Shown here: positions 18,558-27,903 of the stretch, piece by piece
How the letters are laid out: every line of letters begins with the position of its first letter
Numbering within the stretch: the stretch's first letter is position 1
Assembly: GCA_020348445.1 (NCBI GenBank)
Contig: CP070751.1
Location: 532,903 to 596,902, forward strand
Direction: 5' to 3'
Length of the DNA stretch: 64,000 nucleotides
DNA from: Thermoplasmata archaeon
GTDB lineage: Archaea; Thermoplasmatota; Thermoplasmata; GCA-020350865
Notes under the pieces: model-generated
Seen by the model: the letters and a program-made list of their open reading frames with translations, nothing else
The model's database searches: none
Told to the model about the DNA's origin: nothing
Program-made: the position numbers and the translations under genes

Positions 18558-19013
18558 ATGGCAAGAATTCATGCAAGAAAAAAGGGAAAATCCTCATCCA
18601 CAAGACCATATAAACCCGAACCGCCTGAATGGATCACCATGAAGCCAAAAGAAATTGAAAGAACCGTAATCAGGCTCGCTGACGAAGGGCATTCAACCAG
18701 CGAAATAGGAATGAAACTTCGTGATCAATTTGGTGTGCCCAGCGTCAAGTTATCAACAGGAAAGAGCATCTTGAAAATTCTTGCTGAAAATAAACGATCG
18801 CCAAAGCTTCCAGAGGATCTAAAAAACCTGATGAAAAGGGCTGTAAATATAGGTGAACACCTTTCTGAGAATCCAAAGGATATCCACAACCAAAGGGCAT
18901 TGGGGTTGACGGAGGCTAAGATTCGGAGACTTATACGTTATTATAAATCTCAAGGCACACTGCCAGAGGATTGGGAATATAACCTCAAGACGGCAAAACT
19001 TTTGGTAGAATGA
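18558..19013 (+). CDS. rps15: 30S ribosomal protein S15 (uS15, archaeal S13e-like)
   Basis: MARIHARKKGKSSSTRP, IGMKLRDQFGVP, LPEDL and EAKIRRLIRYYK motifs. GGAGG RBS before ATG 18558. Confidence 0.97.
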   Translation: MARIHARKKGKSSSTRPYKPEPPEWITMKPKEIERTVIRLADEGHSTSEIGMKLRDQFGVPSVKLSTGKSILKILAENKRSPKLPEDLKNLMKRAVNIGEHLSENPKDIHNQRALGLTEAKIRRLIRYYKSQGTLPEDWEYNLKTAKLLVE

Positions 19014-19093
19014 TTTGCATTTACACTTCTTATCCAAAATAGGGTATTCTCCAAATTTGGAGTATCTCATGAATAGAGCGGAGGAAAATAAAG

Positions 19094-20470
19094 TTGAAGA
19101 ATGTAAACGATATTCCTAAGGGCCTTGTTAAAAAACTAAAGATCGCCCGGGAAATTGTGCTCAATGAAAAAGACACCATAAGATTAATTTCGCATTATGA
19201 TGCAGATGGAATCTGTGCAGCTGGTATTCTTTGTCACACACTCCTTCGCCAGGGCCTCAAATTCCATGTCACCTTGACACGAAGTTTGAAGGATGAATTC
19301 GTGGATATTCTGAAGAAAGAGGATTATCCTGTCACAATATTTTGTGATATGGGAAGTGGACATTTGGATGCTCTTAAAGAATTTAAGAATAAGGTCATCA
19401 TTTTGGACCACCACACCGCGCAAAGCAACTCCGATGAGCCATTATTGATCAATCCTCATTTTTATGGAATGGATGGCACATACGACATCTGTGGCTCTAG
19501 CCTTGCCTTCATGTTCGCATGCGTAATAAACGAAAAAAACTGGGATTTATCAGCATTGGCCTTGGCAGGAATAATCGGTGATAAACAGCATTTAGACGGC
19601 CTATCTGGCTACAATGCCCATCTGTTTGAGATGGCCAAGGATAAAGGTATCGTGGATGAGAGGAAAATGTTGAAGTTCAGTTCCAATTTGGTGAAAAACG
19701 CACTGCTTGAGGATCTGGACCCATTTATTAAGGGAATGACAGGAAGGGAAGATAGGATCTTGGAATTTATAAGAAATATGAAACTCGATTCTGATATTAA
19801 ATTCGAGGATCTGGATGAAGAGCAGATGCGGTTATTATTAAGTGCTATTATCATCAGGCTTCTTGCCCAAAAGGTTCGGCCGGAGATTGCAGAGGGCGTC
19901 ATTACAAAGAAATACTGGATTTGGAAAATGAACCTTTATGCAAGTGATCTTTCTAACTTTATCAATTCCTGCGGTCGCATGGATAATATGGGTACTGGGT
20001 TGGCATTATGCCTTGGAGAGGAAATGGCACTAAAGAAGGCAATCAAGCTGAGGGCAACTTACAAAGACGAGCTGAGATTTGGGCTTTTAAAGCTGGAGGA
20101 AGAAGGTGCCCATGATATGCAGAACATACAGTTCTTCTACAATGATAACTCTTCGCTTGCTGGTGCCTATGCAGGTTTGGGTATGATGTATCTTTTTAAT
20201 TCCGAAAAACCCACGTTCGCCCTTTCTGTTGAGGAAGAAAAAACAAAAGTTTCGTGTAGAGGGACCAAATATCTCGTATCAAAAGGACTTGACTTGGCAA
20301 GAGCCTGTAGAGATTCTGCAAATGAGGTGGGGGGAAGGGGAGGGGGGCATCCTGTGGCCTCAGGCGCCACGATACCCAAAGGAAAGGAGGAGGCGTTTTT
20401 AAAACATGTTGATGAAATTGTAGGGAAACAGCTTCAAGGTGCAGATGATACACCGGGAAATTCAGTTTAA
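19094..20470 (+). CDS. DHH/DHHA1 family phosphoesterase (archaeal RecJ-like)
   Basis: SHYDADGI, DMGSG, LDHH and GGGHPVASG motifs. It follows rps15, as in many archaea. Confidence 0.9.
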   Translation: MKNVNDIPKGLVKKLKIAREIVLNEKDTIRLISHYDADGICAAGILCHTLLRQGLKFHVTLTRSLKDEFVDILKKEDYPVTIFCDMGSGHLDALKEFKNKVIILDHHTAQSNSDEPLLINPHFYGMDGTYDICGSSLAFMFACVINEKNWDLSALALAGIIGDKQHLDGLSGYNAHLFEMAKDKGIVDERKMLKFSSNLVKNALLEDLDPFIKGMTGREDRILEFIRNMKLDSDIKFEDLDEEQMRLLLSAIIIRLLAQKVRPEIAEGVITKKYWIWKMNLYASDLSNFINSCGRMDNMGTGLALCLGEEMALKKAIKLRATYKDELRFGLLKLEEEGAHDMQNIQFFYNDNSSLAGAYAGLGMMYLFNSEKPTFALSVEEEKTKVSCRGTKYLVSKGLDLARACRDSANEVGGRGGGHPVASGATIPKGKEEAFLKHVDEIVGKQLQGADDTPGNSV

Positions 20471-20527
20471 ATGCAATAATATATATATGACATAATATTT
20501 TTATAATACCCAGGATCGTGATATTGT

Positions 20528-21352
20528 TTGTTAAAACAACCTGTGGATGAAAACATCTTTGAATATATTTTCAGCCGTTGGGATGTTAAAATCAAAATAG
20601 AGGACGAGGCAAGGGAATACAAAAACAGGATTTTAACGAGTCAGTACGGATTCGAAGATGGACCAATTGCTAAAAGAAAAAAGGAACTGGATAATCCAGA
20701 AGAAAATACGATATTTATTAAGGACCTAGCCCTGGATTTAGGTGCTGATTTGGTTGGGATCTCCAAGGTCAGGCGGGAGTACTTCTTCAAAGGCAGTGAG
20801 CTTGATCACAGGTTCGCAATATCCTTGGCCATGGAGATGGACTATGATAAAATCCAGGATTCGCCTGGTCCTCCATCCGCTACCGAAGTTATCAAAATAT
20901 ATTGCCTGCTTGGGGAAATTACTATAAAACTTGCATCAAAAATCAGGGAAATAGGTTACCCTGCTTTTGCCCATCATCCCAGGGCGAGCAGGAGGATTCA
21001 CGCGCGAATTCTACATATTCCAACTGCAATCGAGTCAGGTCTTGGAGAGCTTGGGAGGCTGGGTCTTTTAATAACACCTCAATATGGACCAAGGGTCAGG
21101 CTGGGCACAGTAACCACGAACCTTCCATTGATCCCTGATGAGCCCCTTAACTTCGGCGCATCCGAGTACTGTGAAAAATGCGATATCTGTGTTCGAGAAT
21201 GCGAGGGGGATGCCGTCCCCAAGAAGAAATCCAATGTCCGGGGATTTAAAAAGTACAGGGTGGATCCCTATAAATGCGGGCCGTACTTTGCTGAATACGA
21301 TGGCTGCTCTGTTTGCTTGAAGGTGTGTGCACTCAATAAACGGCCAGAGTGA
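20528..21352 (+). CDS. Cobalamin/Fe-S oxidoreductase of the reductive dehalogenase/QueG superfamily
   Basis: LGADLVGI, SGLGELGRLGLLITPQYGPRVRLGTVTTNLPL, CEKCDICVREC and KC...CSVCLKVC motifs. Confidence 0.8.
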   Translation: MLKQPVDENIFEYIFSRWDVKIKIEDEAREYKNRILTSQYGFEDGPIAKRKKELDNPEENTIFIKDLALDLGADLVGISKVRREYFFKGSELDHRFAISLAMEMDYDKIQDSPGPPSATEVIKIYCLLGEITIKLASKIREIGYPAFAHHPRASRRIHARILHIPTAIESGLGELGRLGLLITPQYGPRVRLGTVTTNLPLIPDEPLNFGASEYCEKCDICVRECEGDAVPKKKSNVRGFKKYRVDPYKCGPYFAEYDGCSVCLKVCALNKRPE

Positions 21353-21387
21353 CAGAAATTGGTATTTTTGGGATTTATACTGTTATT

Positions 21388-24300
21388 TTACCCTTCATCC
21401 CACTCAACAACCACGATCCCGATTACCGCCTTCTCGCCAGCCAGTTCCTTCTCCACAACGTAATAACCTGAATCCCCTCCCTCGAAAATATTGTCGAATG
21501 GAAACTCCACAGAATATGAGCGAGTTTTTGATGTGATGAGTTCCTTTTGGCCTTCAAGAATCTCGGCAGTTTTATCTGGAACAAAGATCTGAGTTTCTAT
21601 GTAGTCTTCCTCTTTGATCTTCAATTCCTTTCTCATGTCATTTATGTACCCGATAAGCTCATCAACGATCCCTTCAGATTTCATCTCCTCTGTCAATTCT
21701 TTATCGATGTAAATCTTTCCCTTTTCGAACTCCTTTTCCACCACATTTTCAGGTGTGCTCAGCTTGAATTCCAACATAGCGTTTGTGATTTTTACAGGAT
21801 AACCCTCTACACCAAGGGTGTATTCCCCTTCCTTTTCTAGGCTCTCTTTGATCTTCCATGGTGATTGATATCGAAGGAGAGTCATCACCTTGCTGGCCTG
21901 CTGCTTGTAGGCACGAAATATTACCTCTTTTTTTGGAATCAATTCCAAATTTAGACCCTGCCATTCCGTACCCGGCTTTAAGAGCTCCAAATTCTTTGCC
22001 TTCACCTTTCTAATAATTGGGATCTCAAACTTTGTTACAGCGTCTCTTACCTCATCTTCCGAGGATTTTATCACTACATTCTTTATTGGATCTGTTTCAT
22101 TTAATCCAGATTCATTTCGCATACCTAAAATAACCTCGATAACCCCGTCTACTATTTTCAGATAGTGCTCTAGGCTGTCACCGATATCCCTTATAATATG
22201 CTCATCAACATCACTTAATAACGCATGTTTGAGCTCTTCCATTCCCTCCTTTTTTGTCCGGTATTCTGCACTGGTTTCCTCTGCTTCGCGGCTCATCTTT
22301 TCCAGGTAGTTCCACGCGTTTTCAAATCCCTCCTTTTCTATGATTTCGATGAGCTTATTGGTAAAGGTCTCAGGGCCCACGATGTCAACACCCTCCTCGC
22401 TTGCAGCTTGGATCAGTCTGATCGTCGAGGCCACGGTTCCTGATTCAAATCCCTCAACCTCTGCTCCCTTTTCATCCGTGACCTTCATTAACTTTTCTAT
22501 TAGTTCTTCTAAACCTCCCAGTTTATCATAAGTACCATCCCAGTCTCCGAGTACAGAACCGTACTTCTGCTCCACTTCATTTACAACTTCTAACATGTAT
22601 AGCGGCAGATATTTGGGTTCTCCCCCTATAAGGACGGCAACCAGGTAGGTATATCGACCATGCTCAATCATCAACTTGCTCGGTCCAAAATCCATTCTTT
22701 TAAGACCCACATCCTCCATTCTCTTAAACGAATCCTTAACAAAATCCTGAATCGCTGTCAACATCCCACTGAACACATCACTGTCCACATCCGTCTGCAA
22801 TCTTCTGGTAACCTGAGTTACCAAAATCCCGCTATTATGTATGAGAAATACATTTTCTATTGAGTATGTCCCGCTCTCATCAATTTCAATTTTCTTTCCC
22901 AGGGTAAGCTGATAGATGGTATCATCAAAGGCTCTTTGGTATGTAAGGAGGACATCTGTATCGAGATCTCCGGATTCTTTAGGTTTCAATCCTATTTCTA
23001 TCTGCTTCTTCTCACCTGCATCGAGTTTTTCTAATCTGTCAAGCCCCTTAACTTCCACCTCCCCCTGAAAGCTGATATCCACATTTTTAGCTGCAAGGTC
23101 TCCTGTGTTGTCTATCTCGATTACACATTTGTTCCAATAATCAGCCTCCATGCCGCCCTTTGGAAGTTTCAAAGTAAACTTTGGGAATTTACCTTGTATA
23201 TACTCTTCTACATTGCTTGAGGTTATACCTCTTGCTTTTTCTATCAATTCCTTTGCCTCATGAAAGTGATCAATATTCAGCTCATTTTCGGCCTCAACCA
23301 AAAGATCATATGCCTCCTGAACATCAACCTTCATTTCCTTTATCTCGGCCAAAGTCTCCTTTACAGTTTCAAGTTCCACTTTTATATCGTGTTTTATCCT
23401 CAGGTCCTCGGCAAGTTTTTCTGCCTCATCAACATGTTCCTTTGCAGATTCGAATTTATTGGTTTTAAATTCCTTGTCTGCGAGAGCCAAAATTGCCTCT
23501 GGTTTTTCGACATCAATTCCCATTTCCTTAAATTGTGATATAAGGACCATTGCGTTTTTGATCCTTCTCCATATTATGTCTGTCTTTTGCTTTAATTTCA
23601 CTTCCTCAAGTTTCTTTTGGAATTTATCCTGAAAATTATCGATTTCTTCGAAGTTACCAGCATCTATGGCGCGTTCGGCCTCTTCAATTAGGGCCAAGAA
23701 TTCATCCTCACTCATTCCCCCTTCCTTTGCAACCGACATAAGATCCCTCATAGCAGAAATCTTTGTCCTGGCGGTGTCGGTGCTTATCTCTTTTTCCACC
23801 TCTTTTCCTTTATTTTGAAGGTAGGACCATGCTCGTTCGAATCCCCCTTCTTCAATGTTCTCGAGAAACTCATTTATAAATGCTTCCTGTCCGCTCTCCA
23901 ATACACCCTTTTCCTCAGCTTCCTCGATTTGCCTGATTGTGGAAGCTACCAATCCTGATTCAAATCCTACAATATCTGCACCTTTCTCGTCAGTGACCTG
24001 CAACAGCTTCTTAATGTAAATTTCTATTCCTTCGAGTTGGGAAAGATCACCACGCCATCCTTCAAGAATAGCGCCGTACTCCTCCTCCAATTCCTTTATC
24101 ACCTCAACCATATACAATGGAAGGTATCTTGGCTCACCGCCTGCAAGTATAGCAGTAAGAAAGATGTCGTGACCGTGCTCAATCAATATCTTGTTTCCGC
24201 CAAAGTCCATTCTCTTAAGTCCCACATCATCTGTTCTCTGAAAGGAATCCTTTATGAAGTCCTGAACAGCCGTGAACATACCGCTGAATATGTCTCTGTC

Positions 24301-27300
24301 AAGTTCTGTTTCCATTTTTCTGCTAGCTTGGCTGATAAGGATACCACTGTTGTGTATCAGCAGAACCTCTTCTATCATGTAAGTGCCACTAGCGTCAGCT
24401 ATGATATTCTTCCCGATATTTAGCTGATAGATGGTATCATCAAAAGCCCTTTGATAGGCCAAAACAACATTCATATCCAATTTTCCGGCTTCTTTTGGTT
24501 TTATACCGATGTCCACCTGCCATGTCTCTCCAATTTCGATTTTTTCAATTCTTTCTATGCCTTTAACCTCCAAATTTCCGCTGATGCTTATGTTCACATT
24601 CTTTGCATAAAGTTCCCCTATATTTGAAATCTCTATTTGACATTTGTTCCATACATCGGCCTCCATTCCCCCCTCCGGTATATCTAATGTGAACTTTGGA
24701 TATTTCCCTTCGATAAAATCCTCAATATTATTTGAAATGATGTTCCTCGCCTTTTTAATCAATTCCCTTGCTTTTTCCAAGTTGAACACTATTATCTCAT
24801 TCTCTGCTTCAATCAAAATAACATCCGATTCACCAACATCAACACCCAACTCCCTGATCTCATCTTGGGTCTTGCGTACAGAATTTAGCTCGATTTCTAC
24901 ATCATGCTTTCGCCGCATTTCATCGGCAATCTGTTCAGCTTCATCCACGAGCTCCTCTGCTTTTTCGTATTCACCTGCCTTAAACTTTAAATCGGCCATG
25001 GCCAAAAGCTCCTCTGGCTTTCCCACATCAACTCCCATATCCTTAAACTGAGAAATCAGAACCAAGGCGTTATTTATCCGCCTTTCGATGATATCTGTCC
25101 TTTGTTTAAATTTAGCTTCTTCCATTTTTTTCTCGAATGTATCCTTGTATTCATCGATAACGTCAAAATTTTCAGAGGCAAGGGCTGACTCGGCCTCGCT
25201 AACTATAGAGAGGGTTTCTTCGGTGCTTATACCCCATTCCTTTGCAGAGGATAAAAGGTCTCTCATAGCCGATATCTTTTCTTTGGCCTTCTCGGTATTT
25301 ATTTCCTTAGTTACATATTCTCCTTTATCTTCAATATAGTTCCAGGCATGTTCAAATCCCATATTTTGCATGGTTTCTATGAACTCTTCTACAAAGGCTT
25401 CCTGCCCCCCCTTGAGAATACCATCAGCTTCAGCAGCCTCAATGAGTCTTATTGTCTCAGCAACCTTACCAGATTCGAATCCAGCTACATCAGCACCTTT
25501 TTCATCTGTTACATGCAGAAGTCTTGCAATAATTTCGTCAACACCATCCACCTCTGAATGGTCCCCCCGCCATTTTTCAAGAACAGGACCGTATTTCTCT
25601 TGCACCTCCCTTAGAATCTCCACCATGAACAGCGGTAAAAATCTCGGTTCACCTCCAATAGTTATGGCTGTAAGAAAAATATTATTCCCGTGCTCTAGTA
25701 ATATCTTATTTGCCCCGAAATCCATCCTTTTTAGCCCCACATCAGCGGTTTTTTGAAAAGAATCCCTGATAAAATCCTGAACAGCCGTGAACATCCCGCT
25801 AAATATATCTCTGTCAATATCCATCTCCATTTTTCTGCTGGCTTGGGAAATGAGGATGCCGCTTCTGTGTATCAAAAGTACCTCTTCGATAAGGTAGGTT
25901 CCGCTGGTGTCAGCCATGATCTTCATCGCCATATCGAGCTGGAAAACGGTTTCATCAAAGGCTCTTTGATATTTGAAGAGAACATCCATATCGAGTTTTC
26001 CAGACTCCTTTGGTTTTACCCCGATTTCCATACGTTTTTTCTCACCTGCTCCCAGCTTTTCGATTCTGGAAAGCCCCTTTACATCCATGTCACCCTTGAA
26101 AATCATATCAACATTTTTAGCCCCTATATCACCTGTGTTAGCTATCTCGATTGTACATTTATTCCATGTATCTGCCTCTATACCGGTTTCAGGGAGTTTT
26201 ACCAAAAACTTGGGGGATTTGCCCTCGATGAAGTCCTGAATTCTGTTTGAACTGATGCTTTTTGCTTTTTGAATCAATTCTGTTGCCTGGTTAACATTGT
26301 TGGCCCCAATTTCAATCTCAGCTTGGGTCAATAGAGAATTTGCCTCTTCAATATCGACACCTGAATCCCTTGCTTCAGTTATTATGTTTTTAATGGACTC
26401 AAGTTCATGTTCTGTGTCGTGTTTCTGATGATGCTCTTTTGCTGTTTTTTGGGCATTATCCGCGTGCTCATCGGCTTTTTCGAAATTATGTGCGGACAAT
26501 TCTTGATCTGCAAGCATCAGAAGTTCCTCGGCCCTTTCGACTTTTATCTTCTGTTCTTTTAATTGGGCAATCATAGCTCGGACTTTCTCGATTTTCTTAC
26601 CGATTATATCGGTCCTGTGCATTACTTTGGCTTCATCCAGCTTATCCTCAAATGACTCCTTGTACTCCTCAATTATGTCGAAATCCTTGGCCTCGAATGC
26701 CTCCTCGGCCTTTTTTAGCAGGGTCATGAATTCTGGTCCCTCTATCCCCAATTCCTTTGCTGAAGTTAAAAGGTCCCTCATGGCAGTTATTCTTGCCCTA
26801 GCCATCTCCGCACTTATCTTTCTTTCAGCCTCACTGAAAATCATATCGATCTTCTCGAGATCCACGAGCTTTGCTTTGGAGAACAGATCGGATGCAAGAC
26901 TTCCTATGGGTATATTCAATGATTTGGCTATTGCATTTAACTCCGAGATTATCTGTTCTATTTCTGAATGGTCTATTTTCTCAGCTGCCACCTTGGCCCT
27001 TTCAAAGAGCATTCTTAAATCAGTTGCATCAAGGCCTCTTGCCTCGGCCTTATGCATTATATGGTCTATGGTTGCTATCAAAACGTTTGCGGCTTTGCGT
27101 TCCATGGCCTTTTTAATCCTTCTTTTTATCTTCCTAATCAGGCTTCTGACCTCTGCATAATCTCGCATCTCCAGGGATGACTCCGCCTCTACAAGCAGCT
27201 CCTCGATTTCCTCGGTCTGAACTCCCACGTGTTTTAAAGATTCTACTTCTGGTTTCAAACCCGCTATGAGTTCTTTAACCTTCATATGTTTTTGAAGTTT

Positions 27301-27903
27301 GGTTGCTGCGTTTTTTGCATTTCTTACCAATTGGCTGACAACACCGTAATCCTTTTTTTCCAGGGCGGCCCGAGCCTCATCTAGGAATTTTTCGGCCTCT
27401 GTTACATCAGCTCCCACCATTTTTGCGTTTGCGATATCGTTCTTACTATTTTCGATCATGAGATATGCCCTATGGTATCTCTTAGCCTCCTTGGCCTCAC
27501 GCTTGGCAGATCTTATATGTTCACTAACATCACCGTACATCTTATTTTGAAGGGATTCCCTGGCCCTCTCAATAAAACTCTCGGCTGCGCTTGCATCGGC
27601 TCCGGCCCTTCTCGCATCATTTACCACAGGCAAGGCATGTTTGATAAGAAGATCAGCACGGTGATAGCGTTTTGCATCAGCAGCAGCGGTTTTAGCCTTT
27701 TTAACAGAGATCCTTACCTGTTTAATATTCAATTCAGAAAGAAAGGCCCTAGCCTCATCCAGGTACATCTTTGCCTCAGATAAATCTGCACCTGTTTTCT
27801 CGGCCTCATTTATGTCGATTTCCGCACTTTTTACAAGTACTTCTGCGTCTTCAAGCTCTTTCGAGCTCACTTGGGGTCTTTCACCTGTATCTTCATCTGC
27901 CAC
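21388..27903 (-). CDS. 2171-aa soluble multidomain protein: helical repeats, three 505-aa modules (helical + Ig-like + longin-like) and an IleRS-C-terminal-like domain
   Basis: Uninterrupted ORF with a GGGGAGG RBS. The triplicated motif Y.IE.V.LIH.SG begins at nt 25896, 24381 and 22866 (1515-nt spacing). The C-terminus carries IDKELTEEMKSEG...INDMRKEL...DYIE. No TM or signal peptide seen. Confidence 0.8.
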   Translation of the reverse strand: MADEDTGERPQVSSKELEDAEVLVKSAEIDINEAEKTGADLSEAKMYLDEARAFLSELNIKQVRISVKKAKTAAADAKRYHRADLLIKHALPVVNDARRAGADASAAESFIERARESLQNKMYGDVSEHIRSAKREAKEAKRYHRAYLMIENSKNDIANAKMVGADVTEAEKFLDEARAALEKKDYGVVSQLVRNAKNAATKLQKHMKVKELIAGLKPEVESLKHVGVQTEEIEELLVEAESSLEMRDYAEVRSLIRKIKRRIKKAMERKAANVLIATIDHIMHKAEARGLDATDLRMLFERAKVAAEKIDHSEIEQIISELNAIAKSLNIPIGSLASDLFSKAKLVDLEKIDMIFSEAERKISAEMARARITAMRDLLTSAKELGIEGPEFMTLLKKAEEAFEAKDFDIIEEYKESFEDKLDEAKVMHRTDIIGKKIEKVRAMIAQLKEQKIKVERAEELLMLADQELSAHNFEKADEHADNAQKTAKEHHQKHDTEHELESIKNIITEARDSGVDIEEANSLLTQAEIEIGANNVNQATELIQKAKSISSNRIQDFIEGKSPKFLVKLPETGIEADTWNKCTIEIANTGDIGAKNVDMIFKGDMDVKGLSRIEKLGAGEKKRMEIGVKPKESGKLDMDVLFKYQRAFDETVFQLDMAMKIMADTSGTYLIEEVLLIHRSGILISQASRKMEMDIDRDIFSGMFTAVQDFIRDSFQKTADVGLKRMDFGANKILLEHGNNIFLTAITIGGEPRFLPLFMVEILREVQEKYGPVLEKWRGDHSEVDGVDEIIARLLHVTDEKGADVAGFESGKVAETIRLIEAAEADGILKGGQEAFVEEFIETMQNMGFEHAWNYIEDKGEYVTKEINTEKAKEKISAMRDLLSSAKEWGISTEETLSIVSEAESALASENFDVIDEYKDTFEKKMEEAKFKQRTDIIERRINNALVLISQFKDMGVDVGKPEELLAMADLKFKAGEYEKAEELVDEAEQIADEMRRKHDVEIELNSVRKTQDEIRELGVDVGESDVILIEAENEIIVFNLEKARELIKKARNIISNNIEDFIEGKYPKFTLDIPEGGMEADVWNKCQIEISNIGELYAKNVNISISGNLEVKGIERIEKIEIGETWQVDIGIKPKEAGKLDMNVVLAYQRAFDDTIYQLNIGKNIIADASGTYMIEEVLLIHNSGILISQASRKMETELDRDIFSGMFTAVQDFIKDSFQRTDDVGLKRMDFGGNKILIEHGHDIFLTAILAGGEPRYLPLYMVEVIKELEEEYGAILEGWRGDLSQLEGIEIYIKKLLQVTDEKGADIVGFESGLVASTIRQIEEAEEKGVLESGQEAFINEFLENIEEGGFERAWSYLQNKGKEVEKEISTDTARTKISAMRDLMSVAKEGGMSEDEFLALIEEAERAIDAGNFEEIDNFQDKFQKKLEEVKLKQKTDIIWRRIKNAMVLISQFKEMGIDVEKPEAILALADKEFKTNKFESAKEHVDEAEKLAEDLRIKHDIKVELETVKETLAEIKEMKVDVQEAYDLLVEAENELNIDHFHEAKELIEKARGITSSNVEEYIQGKFPKFTLKLPKGGMEADYWNKCVIEIDNTGDLAAKNVDISFQGEVEVKGLDRLEKLDAGEKKQIEIGLKPKESGDLDTDVLLTYQRAFDDTIYQLTLGKKIEIDESGTYSIENVFLIHNSGILVTQVTRRLQTDVDSDVFSGMLTAIQDFVKDSFKRMEDVGLKRMDFGPSKLMIEHGRYTYLVAVLIGGEPKYLPLYMLEVVNEVEQKYGSVLGDWDGTYDKLGGLEELIEKLMKVTDEKGAEVEGFESGTVASTIRLIQAASEEGVDIVGPETFTNKLIEIIEKEGFENAWNYLEKMSREAEETSAEYRTKKEGMEELKHALLSDVDEHIIRDIGDSLEHYLKIVDGVIEVILGMRNESGLNETDPIKNVVIKSSEDEVRDAVTKFEIPIIRKVKAKNLELLKPGTEWQGLNLELIPKKEVIFRAYKQQASKVMTLLRYQSPWKIKESLEKEGEYTLGVEGYPVKITNAMLEFKLSTPENVVEKEFEKGKIYIDKELTEEMKSEGIVDELIGYINDMRKELKIKEEDYIETQIFVPDKTAEILEGQKELITSKTRSYSVEFPFDNIFEGGDSGYYVVEKELAGEKAVIGIVVVEWDEG

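What the first reader, a model, noticed from the sequence alone, without database searches (positions are those of the whole stretch)
21388..22150. Isoleucyl-tRNA-synthetase C-terminal extension grafted onto a non-synthetase giant protein
Seen: the last ~250 aa read VIEVILGMRNESGL...DPIKNVVI...IIRKVKAKNL...LIPKKEVIFRAYKQQASKV...KIYIDKELTEEMKSEGIVDELIGYINDMRKELKIKEEDYIET...LITSKTRS. Established: type-2 IleRS ends with R...ikvRQPL..I..ELNVK..lkPnf..lG....V.LDt.lTpEL..EG.aRElv..iQ.mRK..gl.v.DrI......yI..Etla. The order and spacing match, but no HIGH/KMSKS catalytic domain is present. Inference: the tRNA- or partner-binding appendage of IleRS has been co-opted by a large scaffold, possibly linking translation components to a longin-domain assembly. 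I know of no description of this architecture.
Basis: partly seen in the sequence, partly recalled or inferred. Interest (0 to 1): 0.8.

Follow-up and report, generated by a model that had tools for sequence, protein, structure and literature searches.

The report
IleRS tRNA-binding tail on giant scaffold
A 2171-residue cytoplasmic protein of an uncultured Thermoplasmata archaeon ends in a true, well-conserved copy of the tRNA-binding tail of isoleucyl-tRNA synthetase without any catalytic part; this fusion occurs in many related genomes, I found no paper describing it, and what the tail binds is still unknown.

Summary
The last ~270 residues of the ORF at 21388-27903 (-) are a real homologue of the archaeal/eukaryotic-type IleRS C-terminal unit (ARD2 + INS + ARD3, Pfam DUF5915):
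- Pfam scores 55 bits against a cut-off of 27.
- It is 39% identical (E 4e-54) to residues 800-1052 of this genome's own IleRS.
- The AlphaFold model (pLDDT 93) matches solved IleRS2 and yeast IleRS tails (Foldseek E 1e-14).

The protein has no Rossmann or anticodon-helical (ARD1) domain. The genome's single IleRS is intact and keeps its own tail.

The fusion is not an assembly artefact. The same architecture occurs in 22 of 121 sampled genomes of the class (9 of 29 families). The tree does not reject a single origin. In two families (7 of 7 sampled genomes) ileS lies directly downstream of the scaffold gene. The INS-like part is the most conserved segment of the whole protein. A second paralogue pairs ARD2+INS with three SAP domains and a basic tail.

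The scaffold's α/β domains belong to a longin/roadblock-like family that is enriched beside this genome's 35 Ras-like GTPase genes.

The ligand of the tail is not shown. My best guess is tRNA/RNA docking (~0.4) against a purely protein-binding role (~0.35). The scan has only untested first-reader notes on this same stretch, none on other DNA.

The parts
21388..27903 (-). Whole ORF, 2171 aa (GTG start). Soluble and acidic (pI 4.8), with no TM segment or signal peptide.
   Evidence: Orthologues of identical length 2171 aa.
26782..27903 (-). N-terminal helical-hairpin repeat region (aa 1-374). No known family; Thermoplasmatota-specific.
   Evidence: no significant Pfam match; only unnamed Thermoplasmatota clusters.
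25267..26781 (-). Module 1 (aa 375-879): helical repeats, CARDB/Ig-like sandwich (561-665), longin/roadblock-like α/β domain (666-800), helical linker.
23752..25266 (-). Module 2 (aa 880-1384). Same order of domains; 57% identical to module 1.
   Evidence: (exact 505-aa period).
22237..23751 (-). Module 3 (aa 1385-1889). Same order of domains; 50-56% identical to modules 1 and 2.
21967..22203 (-). ARD2-like part of the IleRS tail (yeast 'C-ter A'; aa ~1901-1979). Starts with the long helix that carries the Arg equivalent to yeast R838. Boundaries are approximate.
   Evidence: PMC11685878.
21697..21966 (-). INS-like subdomain (yeast 'C-ter B'; aa ~1980-2069), carrying the GEYxLGxEG...P..M motif shared with Thermoplasmata IleRS. 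It is the most conserved segment of the protein across orthologues (71-77%).
   Evidence: role of INS in D-loop contact from PMC13752280.
21391..21696 (-). ARD3-like domain (yeast 'C-ter C'; aa ~2070-2171). R2091 and K2092 correspond to PmIleRS2 R964/K965 (yeast R999). N2088 replaces Q961 and I2096 replaces L969.
   Evidence: PMC13752280 and PMC11685878.

Best explanation
Shown: the gene encodes a cytoplasmic multi-module scaffold. It has N-terminal helical repeats, then three 505-aa modules (helical repeats, Ig-like sandwich, longin/roadblock-like domain, helical linker). Its C-terminus is a complete paralogue of the IleRS C-terminal tRNA-binding unit (ARD2 + INS + ARD3). That unit came from the long, DUF835-tailed IleRS lineage of Thermoplasmata, and the tree does not reject a single ancient fusion followed by vertical inheritance. 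Inferred mechanism: the tail still works as a docking module for the L-shaped tRNA body (D-loop/elbow through INS, anticodon loop through the ARD3 arginine pocket) or for a related RNA. Without ARD1 and the catalytic body, this binding would be low in affinity and relaxed in specificity. The tail would then tether tRNA(Ile)-like RNA to a scaffold whose three longin-like domains engage Ras-like small GTPases or the matching longin-like tails of membrane proteins. My confidence is about 0.98 in the homology and the graft and about 0.4 in RNA docking. The confidence figure of this field refers to the mechanism.
For: Homology and fold.
Genuine and inherited: at least 14 close clusters and about 40 clusters at 50% identity carry the tail at their extreme C-end. 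It occurs in 22 of 121 genomes of the class, mostly all-or-none per family. IleRS tails and scaffold tails are separated by one branch (SH-aLRT 97-98).
Selection: INS-like 71-77% and ARD3-like 65-75% identity across orthologues, equal to or above the longin domains.
tRNA-contact residues: the Arg equivalent to Pm R964 / Sc R999 is R in 22 and K in 3 of 25 scaffold tails, and K965 is K or R in 16 of 25 (residue roles from PMC13752280 and PMC11685878).
Paralogue L085:500-4036(-): combines longin-like domain + ARD2 + INS with three SAP domains (Pfam E 8.7e-19) and a Lys/Arg-rich tail. These are nucleic-acid-binding hallmarks.
Link to ileS: ileS lies about 250 nt downstream on the same strand in 6 of 35 loci, which fall in one clade, and in 7 of 7 sampled genomes of families f15 and f20.
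GTPase context: the genome has 35 Ras-family genes. 8 of 19 loci with this longin-like domain lie within 15 kb of one, against 2.6 expected.
Against: ARD1, whose Arg (Pm R721 / Sc R739) is essential for reading A35/U36, is absent (PMC13752280).
The Gln of the N34 pocket is lost in all 25 scaffold tails although invariant in 16 IleRS. The Arg-Arg just before it is also lost.
The conserved Arg also has a structural role in yeast IleRS (PMC11685878), so its retention does not prove RNA binding.
The tail is acidic (net -12), although the genome's own IleRS tail is equally acidic (-13), so charge does not discriminate.
ARD3 is dispensable in the paralogue.
In this genome the gene is 1.65 Mb from ileS and 27 kb from the nearest GTPase gene.
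Confidence: 0.4

Rival explanations
1. The tail has been exapted as a protein-protein interaction module and no longer binds RNA. It could bind IleRS itself, another synthetase or a lineage-specific partner. The precedent is the ARD3-like UNE-I repeats of vertebrate IleRS, which bind EPRS in the multi-synthetase complex.
For: The base-specific pocket residues (Gln, Arg-Arg) are lost while the fold is strictly kept. Foldseek and the profile search also hit the chicken IARS1 UNE-I:EARS1 complex 7wrs_B (E 2e-3; 9e-6), so this fold is known to serve protein binding. Trp at fragment position 137 (aa 2016) is conserved in the scaffolds but not in IleRS, which suggests a new surface. The domain is acidic.
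Against: No partner was identified. No gene neighbour is conserved apart from ileS in two families. The SAP/basic-tail paralogue points towards nucleic acid. The motifs conserved in INS are shared with IleRS, which suggests a shared ligand.
Confidence: 0.35
2. The tail is a structural cap or slowly decaying relic of a fusion with a neighbouring ileS copy and has no ligand of its own.
For: ileS adjacency in one clade fits an origin by local duplication and fusion. ARD3 was lost in one paralogue.
Against: The INS-like and ARD3-like parts are among the most conserved parts of the protein. They are retained at the C-end of all full-length relatives examined across 9 families. The model is confident and compact (pLDDT 93).
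Confidence: 0.1
3. The fusion is an assembly chimera or a mis-joined pair of genes near 22150-22240.
For: None found. The genome is a metagenome-type assembly (81.7% marker completeness).
Against: The frame is uninterrupted. The same junction and the same length (2171 aa) occur in independent assemblies from NCBI, JGI and Logan and in 22 GTDB species genomes. The paralogue shares the ~25 residues upstream of the IleRS-like part.
Confidence: 0.01

Closest known systems
C-terminal tRNA-binding domains of archaeal/eukaryotic-type IleRS (ARD2-INS-ARD3 = C-ter A/B/C; PmIleRS2 8C8V, ScIleRS:tRNAIle 8WND; Pfam DUF5915)
   Same: Same fold and same order of the three subdomains. 39% identity to the host's own IleRS tail. 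The N34-reading Arg and its neighbouring Lys are conserved, as is the lineage-specific INS motif.
   Different: It is not attached to a synthetase: no Rossmann fold, editing domain or ARD1. The pocket Gln and the preceding Arg-Arg are lost. It sits at the end of a 1900-aa scaffold.
UNE-I domain of vertebrate cytoplasmic IleRS (7WRS), which binds EPRS in the multi-synthetase complex
   Same: A domain of ARD3-like fold reused for something other than anticodon reading. Weak fold and profile match.
   Different: UNE-I is still part of an active IleRS and is a eukaryotic addition. Here the whole tRNA-binding unit has left the enzyme.
Synthetase-derived domains in non-synthetase proteins (Trbp111/Arc1p/EMAPII tRNA-binding OB folds, AlaX, YbaK, HisZ; from my general knowledge)
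   Same: The same evolutionary theme: a piece of an aaRS lives on in a protein that does not charge tRNA.
   Different: Different fold and different donor. I found no report of the IleRS ARD2-INS-ARD3 unit outside IleRS (0 papers mention DUF5915). No OB-fold tRNA_bind domain is present.
Asgard multidomain proteins with adaptin-appendage (Ig-like) + longin + TPR domains (PMC10936438), and MglB/Roadblock partners of small GTPases
   Same: The scaffold modules pair an Ig-like sandwich with a longin/roadblock-like β-β-α-β-β-β-α domain and helical repeats. Relatives of this domain lie beside Ras-like GTPase genes.
   Different: No Pfam longin or Roadblock match. The organism is a Thermoplasmata archaeon, not an Asgard one. 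The domain is triplicated and fused to an IleRS tail. GTPase binding is untested.

Membership tests
DUF5915 / type-2 IleRS C-terminal unit (ARD2-INS-ARD3) | Pfam PF19302 score above the gathering threshold | tested here: met
   55.1 bits against a cut-off of 27 (E 9.4e-15) for aa 1880-2171; 40.7 bits in the whole protein.
DUF5915 / type-2 IleRS C-terminal unit (ARD2-INS-ARD3) | Fold matches solved IleRS2 / yeast IleRS C-terminal domains | tested here: met
   AF2 pLDDT 92.9. Foldseek hits 8c9d, 8c8v, 8wnd at E 1.5e-14 to 1e-13 over ~260 aligned columns.
DUF5915 / type-2 IleRS C-terminal unit (ARD2-INS-ARD3) | N34-reading arginine (Sc R999 / Pm R964) | tested here: met
   R2091 here; R in 22 and K in 3 of 25 scaffold tails.
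DUF5915 / type-2 IleRS C-terminal unit (ARD2-INS-ARD3) | Supporting pocket Gln (Pm Q961 / Sc Q996) and the conserved Arg-Arg before it | tested here: not met
   N2088 here. Q occurs in 0 of 25 scaffold tails and in 16 of 16 IleRS. The Arg-Arg pair is largely lost in the scaffolds (R in at most 5 and 3 of 25 at the two positions).
Isoleucyl-tRNA synthetase (enzyme) | Class I Rossmann catalytic domain with HIGH and KMSKS motifs | tested here: not met
   No PF00133 match. phmmer with the genome's own IleRS residues 1-790 finds no scaffold protein.
Isoleucyl-tRNA synthetase (enzyme) | Helical anticodon-binding domain ARD1 (PF08264) with the A35/U36-reading Arg | tested here: not met
   No PF08264 match. 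Homology to IleRS begins at IleRS residue ~800.
Longin / Roadblock-LC7 domains (scaffold modules) | β-β-α-β-β-β-α fold similar to solved longin/roadblock proteins | tested here: inconclusive
   The model has that order of elements. Foldseek hits to AP-1 sigma, zeta-COP and Ragulator are weak (E 1e-4 to 1e-3, TM 0.2-0.5). The language-model search gives Roadblock/LAMTOR2 and Fuz/Mon1 longin clusters at 0.89-0.92. No Pfam hit.
Longin / Roadblock-LC7 domains (scaffold modules) | Binds or regulates a small GTPase | not testable with these tools
   Only genomic association: 8 of 19 loci with this domain lie within 15 kb of a Ras-like gene, against 2.6 expected. The scaffold gene itself is 27 kb away.
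Trbp111/Arc1p-type tRNA-binding proteins | OB-fold tRNA_bind domain | tested here: not met
   No such Pfam match. The resemblance is functional analogy only.

The most novel reading that the evidence does not exclude
The scaffold is a prokaryotic coupling device between the aminoacylation system and small-GTPase signalling. Its IleRS-derived tail would sense or capture tRNA(Ile), charged or uncharged, or IleRS itself. Its three longin/roadblock-like domains would present that information to Ras-like GTPases at the membrane. This would be an archaeal analogue, outside Asgard, of the eukaryotic LeuRS/IleRS-Rag-Ragulator nutrient-sensing logic.
Probability: 0.08. Interest if true: 0.9.

Novelty: new variant of a known kind. 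Interest (0 to 1): 0.6.

Why it matters
Pieces of aminoacyl-tRNA synthetases that escape into other proteins have repeatedly revealed new tRNA biology, for example Arc1p, Trbp111 and trans-editing factors. This appears to be the first case I could find for the ARD2-INS-ARD3 unit, whose role in reading the wobble base and the D-loop was solved structurally only in 2023-2026.

The unit sits on a large, conserved, triplicated Ig + longin-like scaffold. The host is a non-Asgard archaeal lineage that is unusually rich in Ras-like GTPases. The protein is therefore a concrete, testable handle on two questions. Can this IleRS tail bind tRNA on its own? What do the longin-like domains of Thermoplasmata do?

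If the tail still binds tRNA, the protein would physically connect tRNA to a GTPase-type scaffold in a prokaryote.

Tried and rejected
1. Complex prediction of the scaffold tail (A1) with the DUF835 end-domain of the genome's own IleRS (A4) gave no verdict (score 0.01; controls not run). It counts neither for nor against binding.
2. Conserved gene neighbourhood: only the closest relative (L006) shares the window's neighbours. De novo clustering of neighbours in 35 loci found housekeeping genes, and ileS in 6 loci. No GTPase or tRNA gene recurs next to the scaffold.
3. Net charge and pI of the subdomains in scaffold tails versus IleRS tails are equally acidic, so they do not discriminate.
4. 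Strict co-occurrence of the scaffold with DUF835-extended IleRS is rejected. Extended IleRS occurs in many families without the scaffold, and family f22 has the scaffold with a standard-length (~1060 aa) IleRS.
5. The search for related loci with the broad alignment A2 failed because no stretch was conserved enough. It was repeated with the narrower alignment A3.
6. Literature: no paper mentions DUF5915. The one paper that mentions DUF835 calls it an inactivated KaiC-like output domain. The 2026 IleRS C-terminus paper does not mention extensions or non-synthetase homologues.
7. Assembly chimera: rejected (see rival explanations).
8. The N-terminal helical repeats have no named family.
9. Whether ileS adjacency is ancestral could not be decided. 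The adjacent cases form one clade (support 93) that is not demonstrably basal.

Full report
**Observation**

Window 21388-27903 (-) is a single uninterrupted 2171-codon ORF.

Pfam finds three CARDB-type Ig domains and DUF5915 (PF19302) at the C-end. Scanned alone, residues 1880-2171 score 55.1 bits (E 9.4e-15) against a gathering threshold of 27. No class I catalytic domain or Anticodon_1 domain is detected. NCBIfam gives only a sub-threshold trace of an IleRS model over the same residues.

**The genome's own IleRS**

A whole-genome search with PF19302 finds three places:
- a true IleRS,
- this ORF,
- a weak match in ValRS.

The IleRS (L004:104-4102(-), 1332 aa) has tRNA-synt_1, Anticodon_1 and its own DUF5915. 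It also carries a zinc ribbon and a terminal DUF835 domain. The KMSKS-type loop (RMSKS) is present, and the HIGH position reads HLGT. BLASTP of the scaffold tail against this enzyme aligns residues 1907-2165 with IleRS 800-1052 at 39% identity, E 4e-54.

**Structure**

- An AF2 model of residues 1880-2171 on a 41-row alignment reaches pLDDT 92.9.
- The best Foldseek matches are P. megaterium IleRS2, including the entry with the fully resolved C-terminal tRNA-binding domain (8c8v), and yeast IleRS bound to tRNA(Ile) (8wnd). E-values are 1.5e-14 to 1e-13.
- A sequence profile of the domain hits the same entries at E 2e-23.

Two recent papers give the anatomy. The unit is ARD2 (C-ter A), with the INS subdomain (C-ter B) inserted in it, followed by ARD3 (C-ter C). 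INS touches the D-loop. ARD3 reads the wobble base through an Arg (Pm R964, Sc R999), helped by Gln, Lys and Leu. A35/U36 are read by an Arg of ARD1 (PMC13752280; PMC11685878). The scaffold carries all three C-terminal subdomains and lacks ARD1.

**Not an artefact: a family**

- Word-indexed and exhaustive protein searches find 14 close clusters (58-71% identity in the tail) and 495 proteins in all at E ≤ 1e-3.
- I classified the best 150 with phmmer. About 40 are non-synthetase proteins of 1.3-2.4 kaa. They share the helical, Ig and longin-like parts and bear the tail at their extreme C-end. The others are IleRS or fragments.
- In one genome per species, 22 of 121 sampled genomes of the class have the scaffold. 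These fall in 9 of 29 families, mostly all-or-none per family, with one gene per genome and two or three modules.
- Titles of matching GTDB records name Thermoplasmata, Methanomassiliicoccales and 'Methanobacteriota' MAGs.
- Trees of the tail place all IleRS on one side of a single branch (SH-aLRT 97-98) and all scaffolds on the other. One origin is therefore not rejected.
- The IleRS most similar to the scaffold tail are the long, DUF835-tailed ones. These share the INS motif GEYxLGxEG...P..M with the scaffolds.

**Link to ileS**

In 6 of 35 fetched loci, ileS lies directly downstream of the scaffold gene on the same strand, about 250 nt away. These six fall in one clade of the tail tree. In the class sample, the same adjacency can be read from the coordinates in all four f15 genomes and all three f20 genomes.

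This fits either an origin by local duplication and fusion or a functional coupling. It does not decide between them. In the window's genome the two genes are 1.65 Mb apart. Its neighbours are unrelated housekeeping genes: a Mur-ligase-like gene, MMPL, a ferredoxin, a DHH phosphoesterase and S15.

**Constraint and residues**

- Across five orthologues, the INS-like part is the most conserved segment of the protein (71-77% identity). ARD3-like follows at 65-75%. The longin-like domains are at 57-79% and the helical repeats at 32-61%.
- Of the PmIleRS2 N34-pocket residues, the Arg is kept (22 R, 3 K of 25) and the Lys is partly kept (16 of 25 K or R). The Gln is lost in all scaffolds although invariant in IleRS, and the preceding Arg-Arg is lost.
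- The yeast study notes that this Arg and its ARD2 counterpart also stabilise the fold. Retention of the Arg is therefore compatible with RNA binding but does not prove it.
- Net charge does not separate scaffold tails from IleRS tails.

**A second paralogue**

L085:500-4036(-) (1178 aa) has the following parts in order:
- one longin-like domain plus linker (49% identity to the scaffold),
- a coiled coil,
- three SAP domains (Pfam E 8.7e-19),
- ARD2+INS only (41% identity over 193 residues),
- a proline-rich, Lys/Arg-rich tail in place of ARD3.

The pairing of 'longin-like domain + IleRS ARD2-INS' is therefore conserved in two architectures. In one of them it is joined to classical nucleic-acid-binding elements. 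This is my main reason for ranking RNA docking slightly above a pure protein-binding role.

**The rest of the protein**

- The three modules have an exact 505-aa period and are 50-57% identical to one another.
- A model of one module (pLDDT 86.8) shows an Ig sandwich, a β-β-α-β-β-β-α domain and a helical bundle.
- Foldseek gives TRAP and adaptin-ear Ig domains, and weakly AP-1 sigma, zeta-COP and Ragulator.
- A language-model search gives Asgard Roadblock/LAMTOR2 and Fuz/Mon1-longin clusters at 0.89-0.92.
- There is no TM segment.
- The same α/β domain occurs in at least 18 other ORFs of this genome, many of them giant. In other Thermoplasmatota it is the cytoplasmic tail after the TM helix of large surface proteins.
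- The genome has 35 full-length Ras-family matches. 8 of 19 loci with the domain lie within 15 kb of one, against 2.6 expected by random placement (P ~0.003; the loci are not independent).
- One of these loci is the STAND ATPase with a roadblock-like insert that earlier follow-ups of this scan described.

The scaffold's modules therefore probably belong to a GTPase-associated domain family, although the scaffold gene itself has no GTPase neighbour.

**Mechanism**

Shown: homology, fold, single-family inheritance, strong constraint on the tail, an intact separate IleRS, and ileS adjacency in two families.

Inferred: the tail docks the tRNA body or another RNA with relaxed specificity (~0.4), or it has become a protein-binding module as UNE-I has in vertebrates (~0.35), or it is a structural relic (~0.1). 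A test of one protein partner, the IleRS DUF835 domain, returned no verdict and is not evidence either way.

**Novelty**

No paper in the library mentions DUF5915. The 2026 study of IleRS C-terminal evolution does not mention homologues outside the enzyme. Databases only auto-label some relatives. Recruitment of synthetase pieces into other proteins is a known theme, so I class this as a new variant of a known kind. The ligand is open and the GTPase-rich context is unusual.

Noticed in passing
L004:104-4102 (-) = G000:C1:2199003-2203001: The genome's only IleRS is 1332 aa. After its own ARD3 it carries zinc ribbons, an acidic linker and a terminal DUF835 (inactivated KaiC-like) domain. Its HIGH position reads HLGT. 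At least 30 clusters of IleRS at 50% identity end in the same DUF835. I found no description of this fusion.
   Followed up: partly
class sample, (e.g. G003, G009, G022, G040): Many genomes of the class have two IleRS-type genes, one of ~1040-1075 aa and one of ~1330-1500 aa. Family f9 has IleRS open frames of 2300-2900 aa (G008, G088, G110; also P0055, 2329 aa).
   Followed up: no
L085:500-4036 (-) = G000:C1:3106499-3110035: A 1178-aa paralogue: longin-like domain, coiled coil, three SAP domains, IleRS ARD2+INS without ARD3, then a Pro-rich basic tail. SAP domains are uncommon in archaea.
   Followed up: partly
G000:C1, e.g. 3131858-3138148, 4122467-4123678, 5073516-5085574, 18561-26220: The genome has 35 full-length Ras-family small-GTPase genes. 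Several lie in rows beside giant ORFs that end in the same longin/roadblock-like domain as the scaffold modules.
   Followed up: partly
L065:6245-10465 (+); L051:7-1653 (+): In other Thermoplasmatota (including an Aciduliprofundum MAG), the longin-like domain is the cytoplasmic tail after the single TM helix of large PKD/cadherin-like surface proteins.
   Followed up: no
L009:1586-7519 (+): Scaffold orthologues of other families start with a CxxC...CxxC zinc ribbon that the window's protein lacks. It is similar in type to the ribbons in the IleRS extension.
   Followed up: no
L005:141-2771 (-): The genome's ValRS (876 aa) has a weak, sub-threshold DUF5915 match at its C-end (E 0.0024). This fits a shared ancestry of the first C-terminal domain in ValRS and IleRS.
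   Followed up: no
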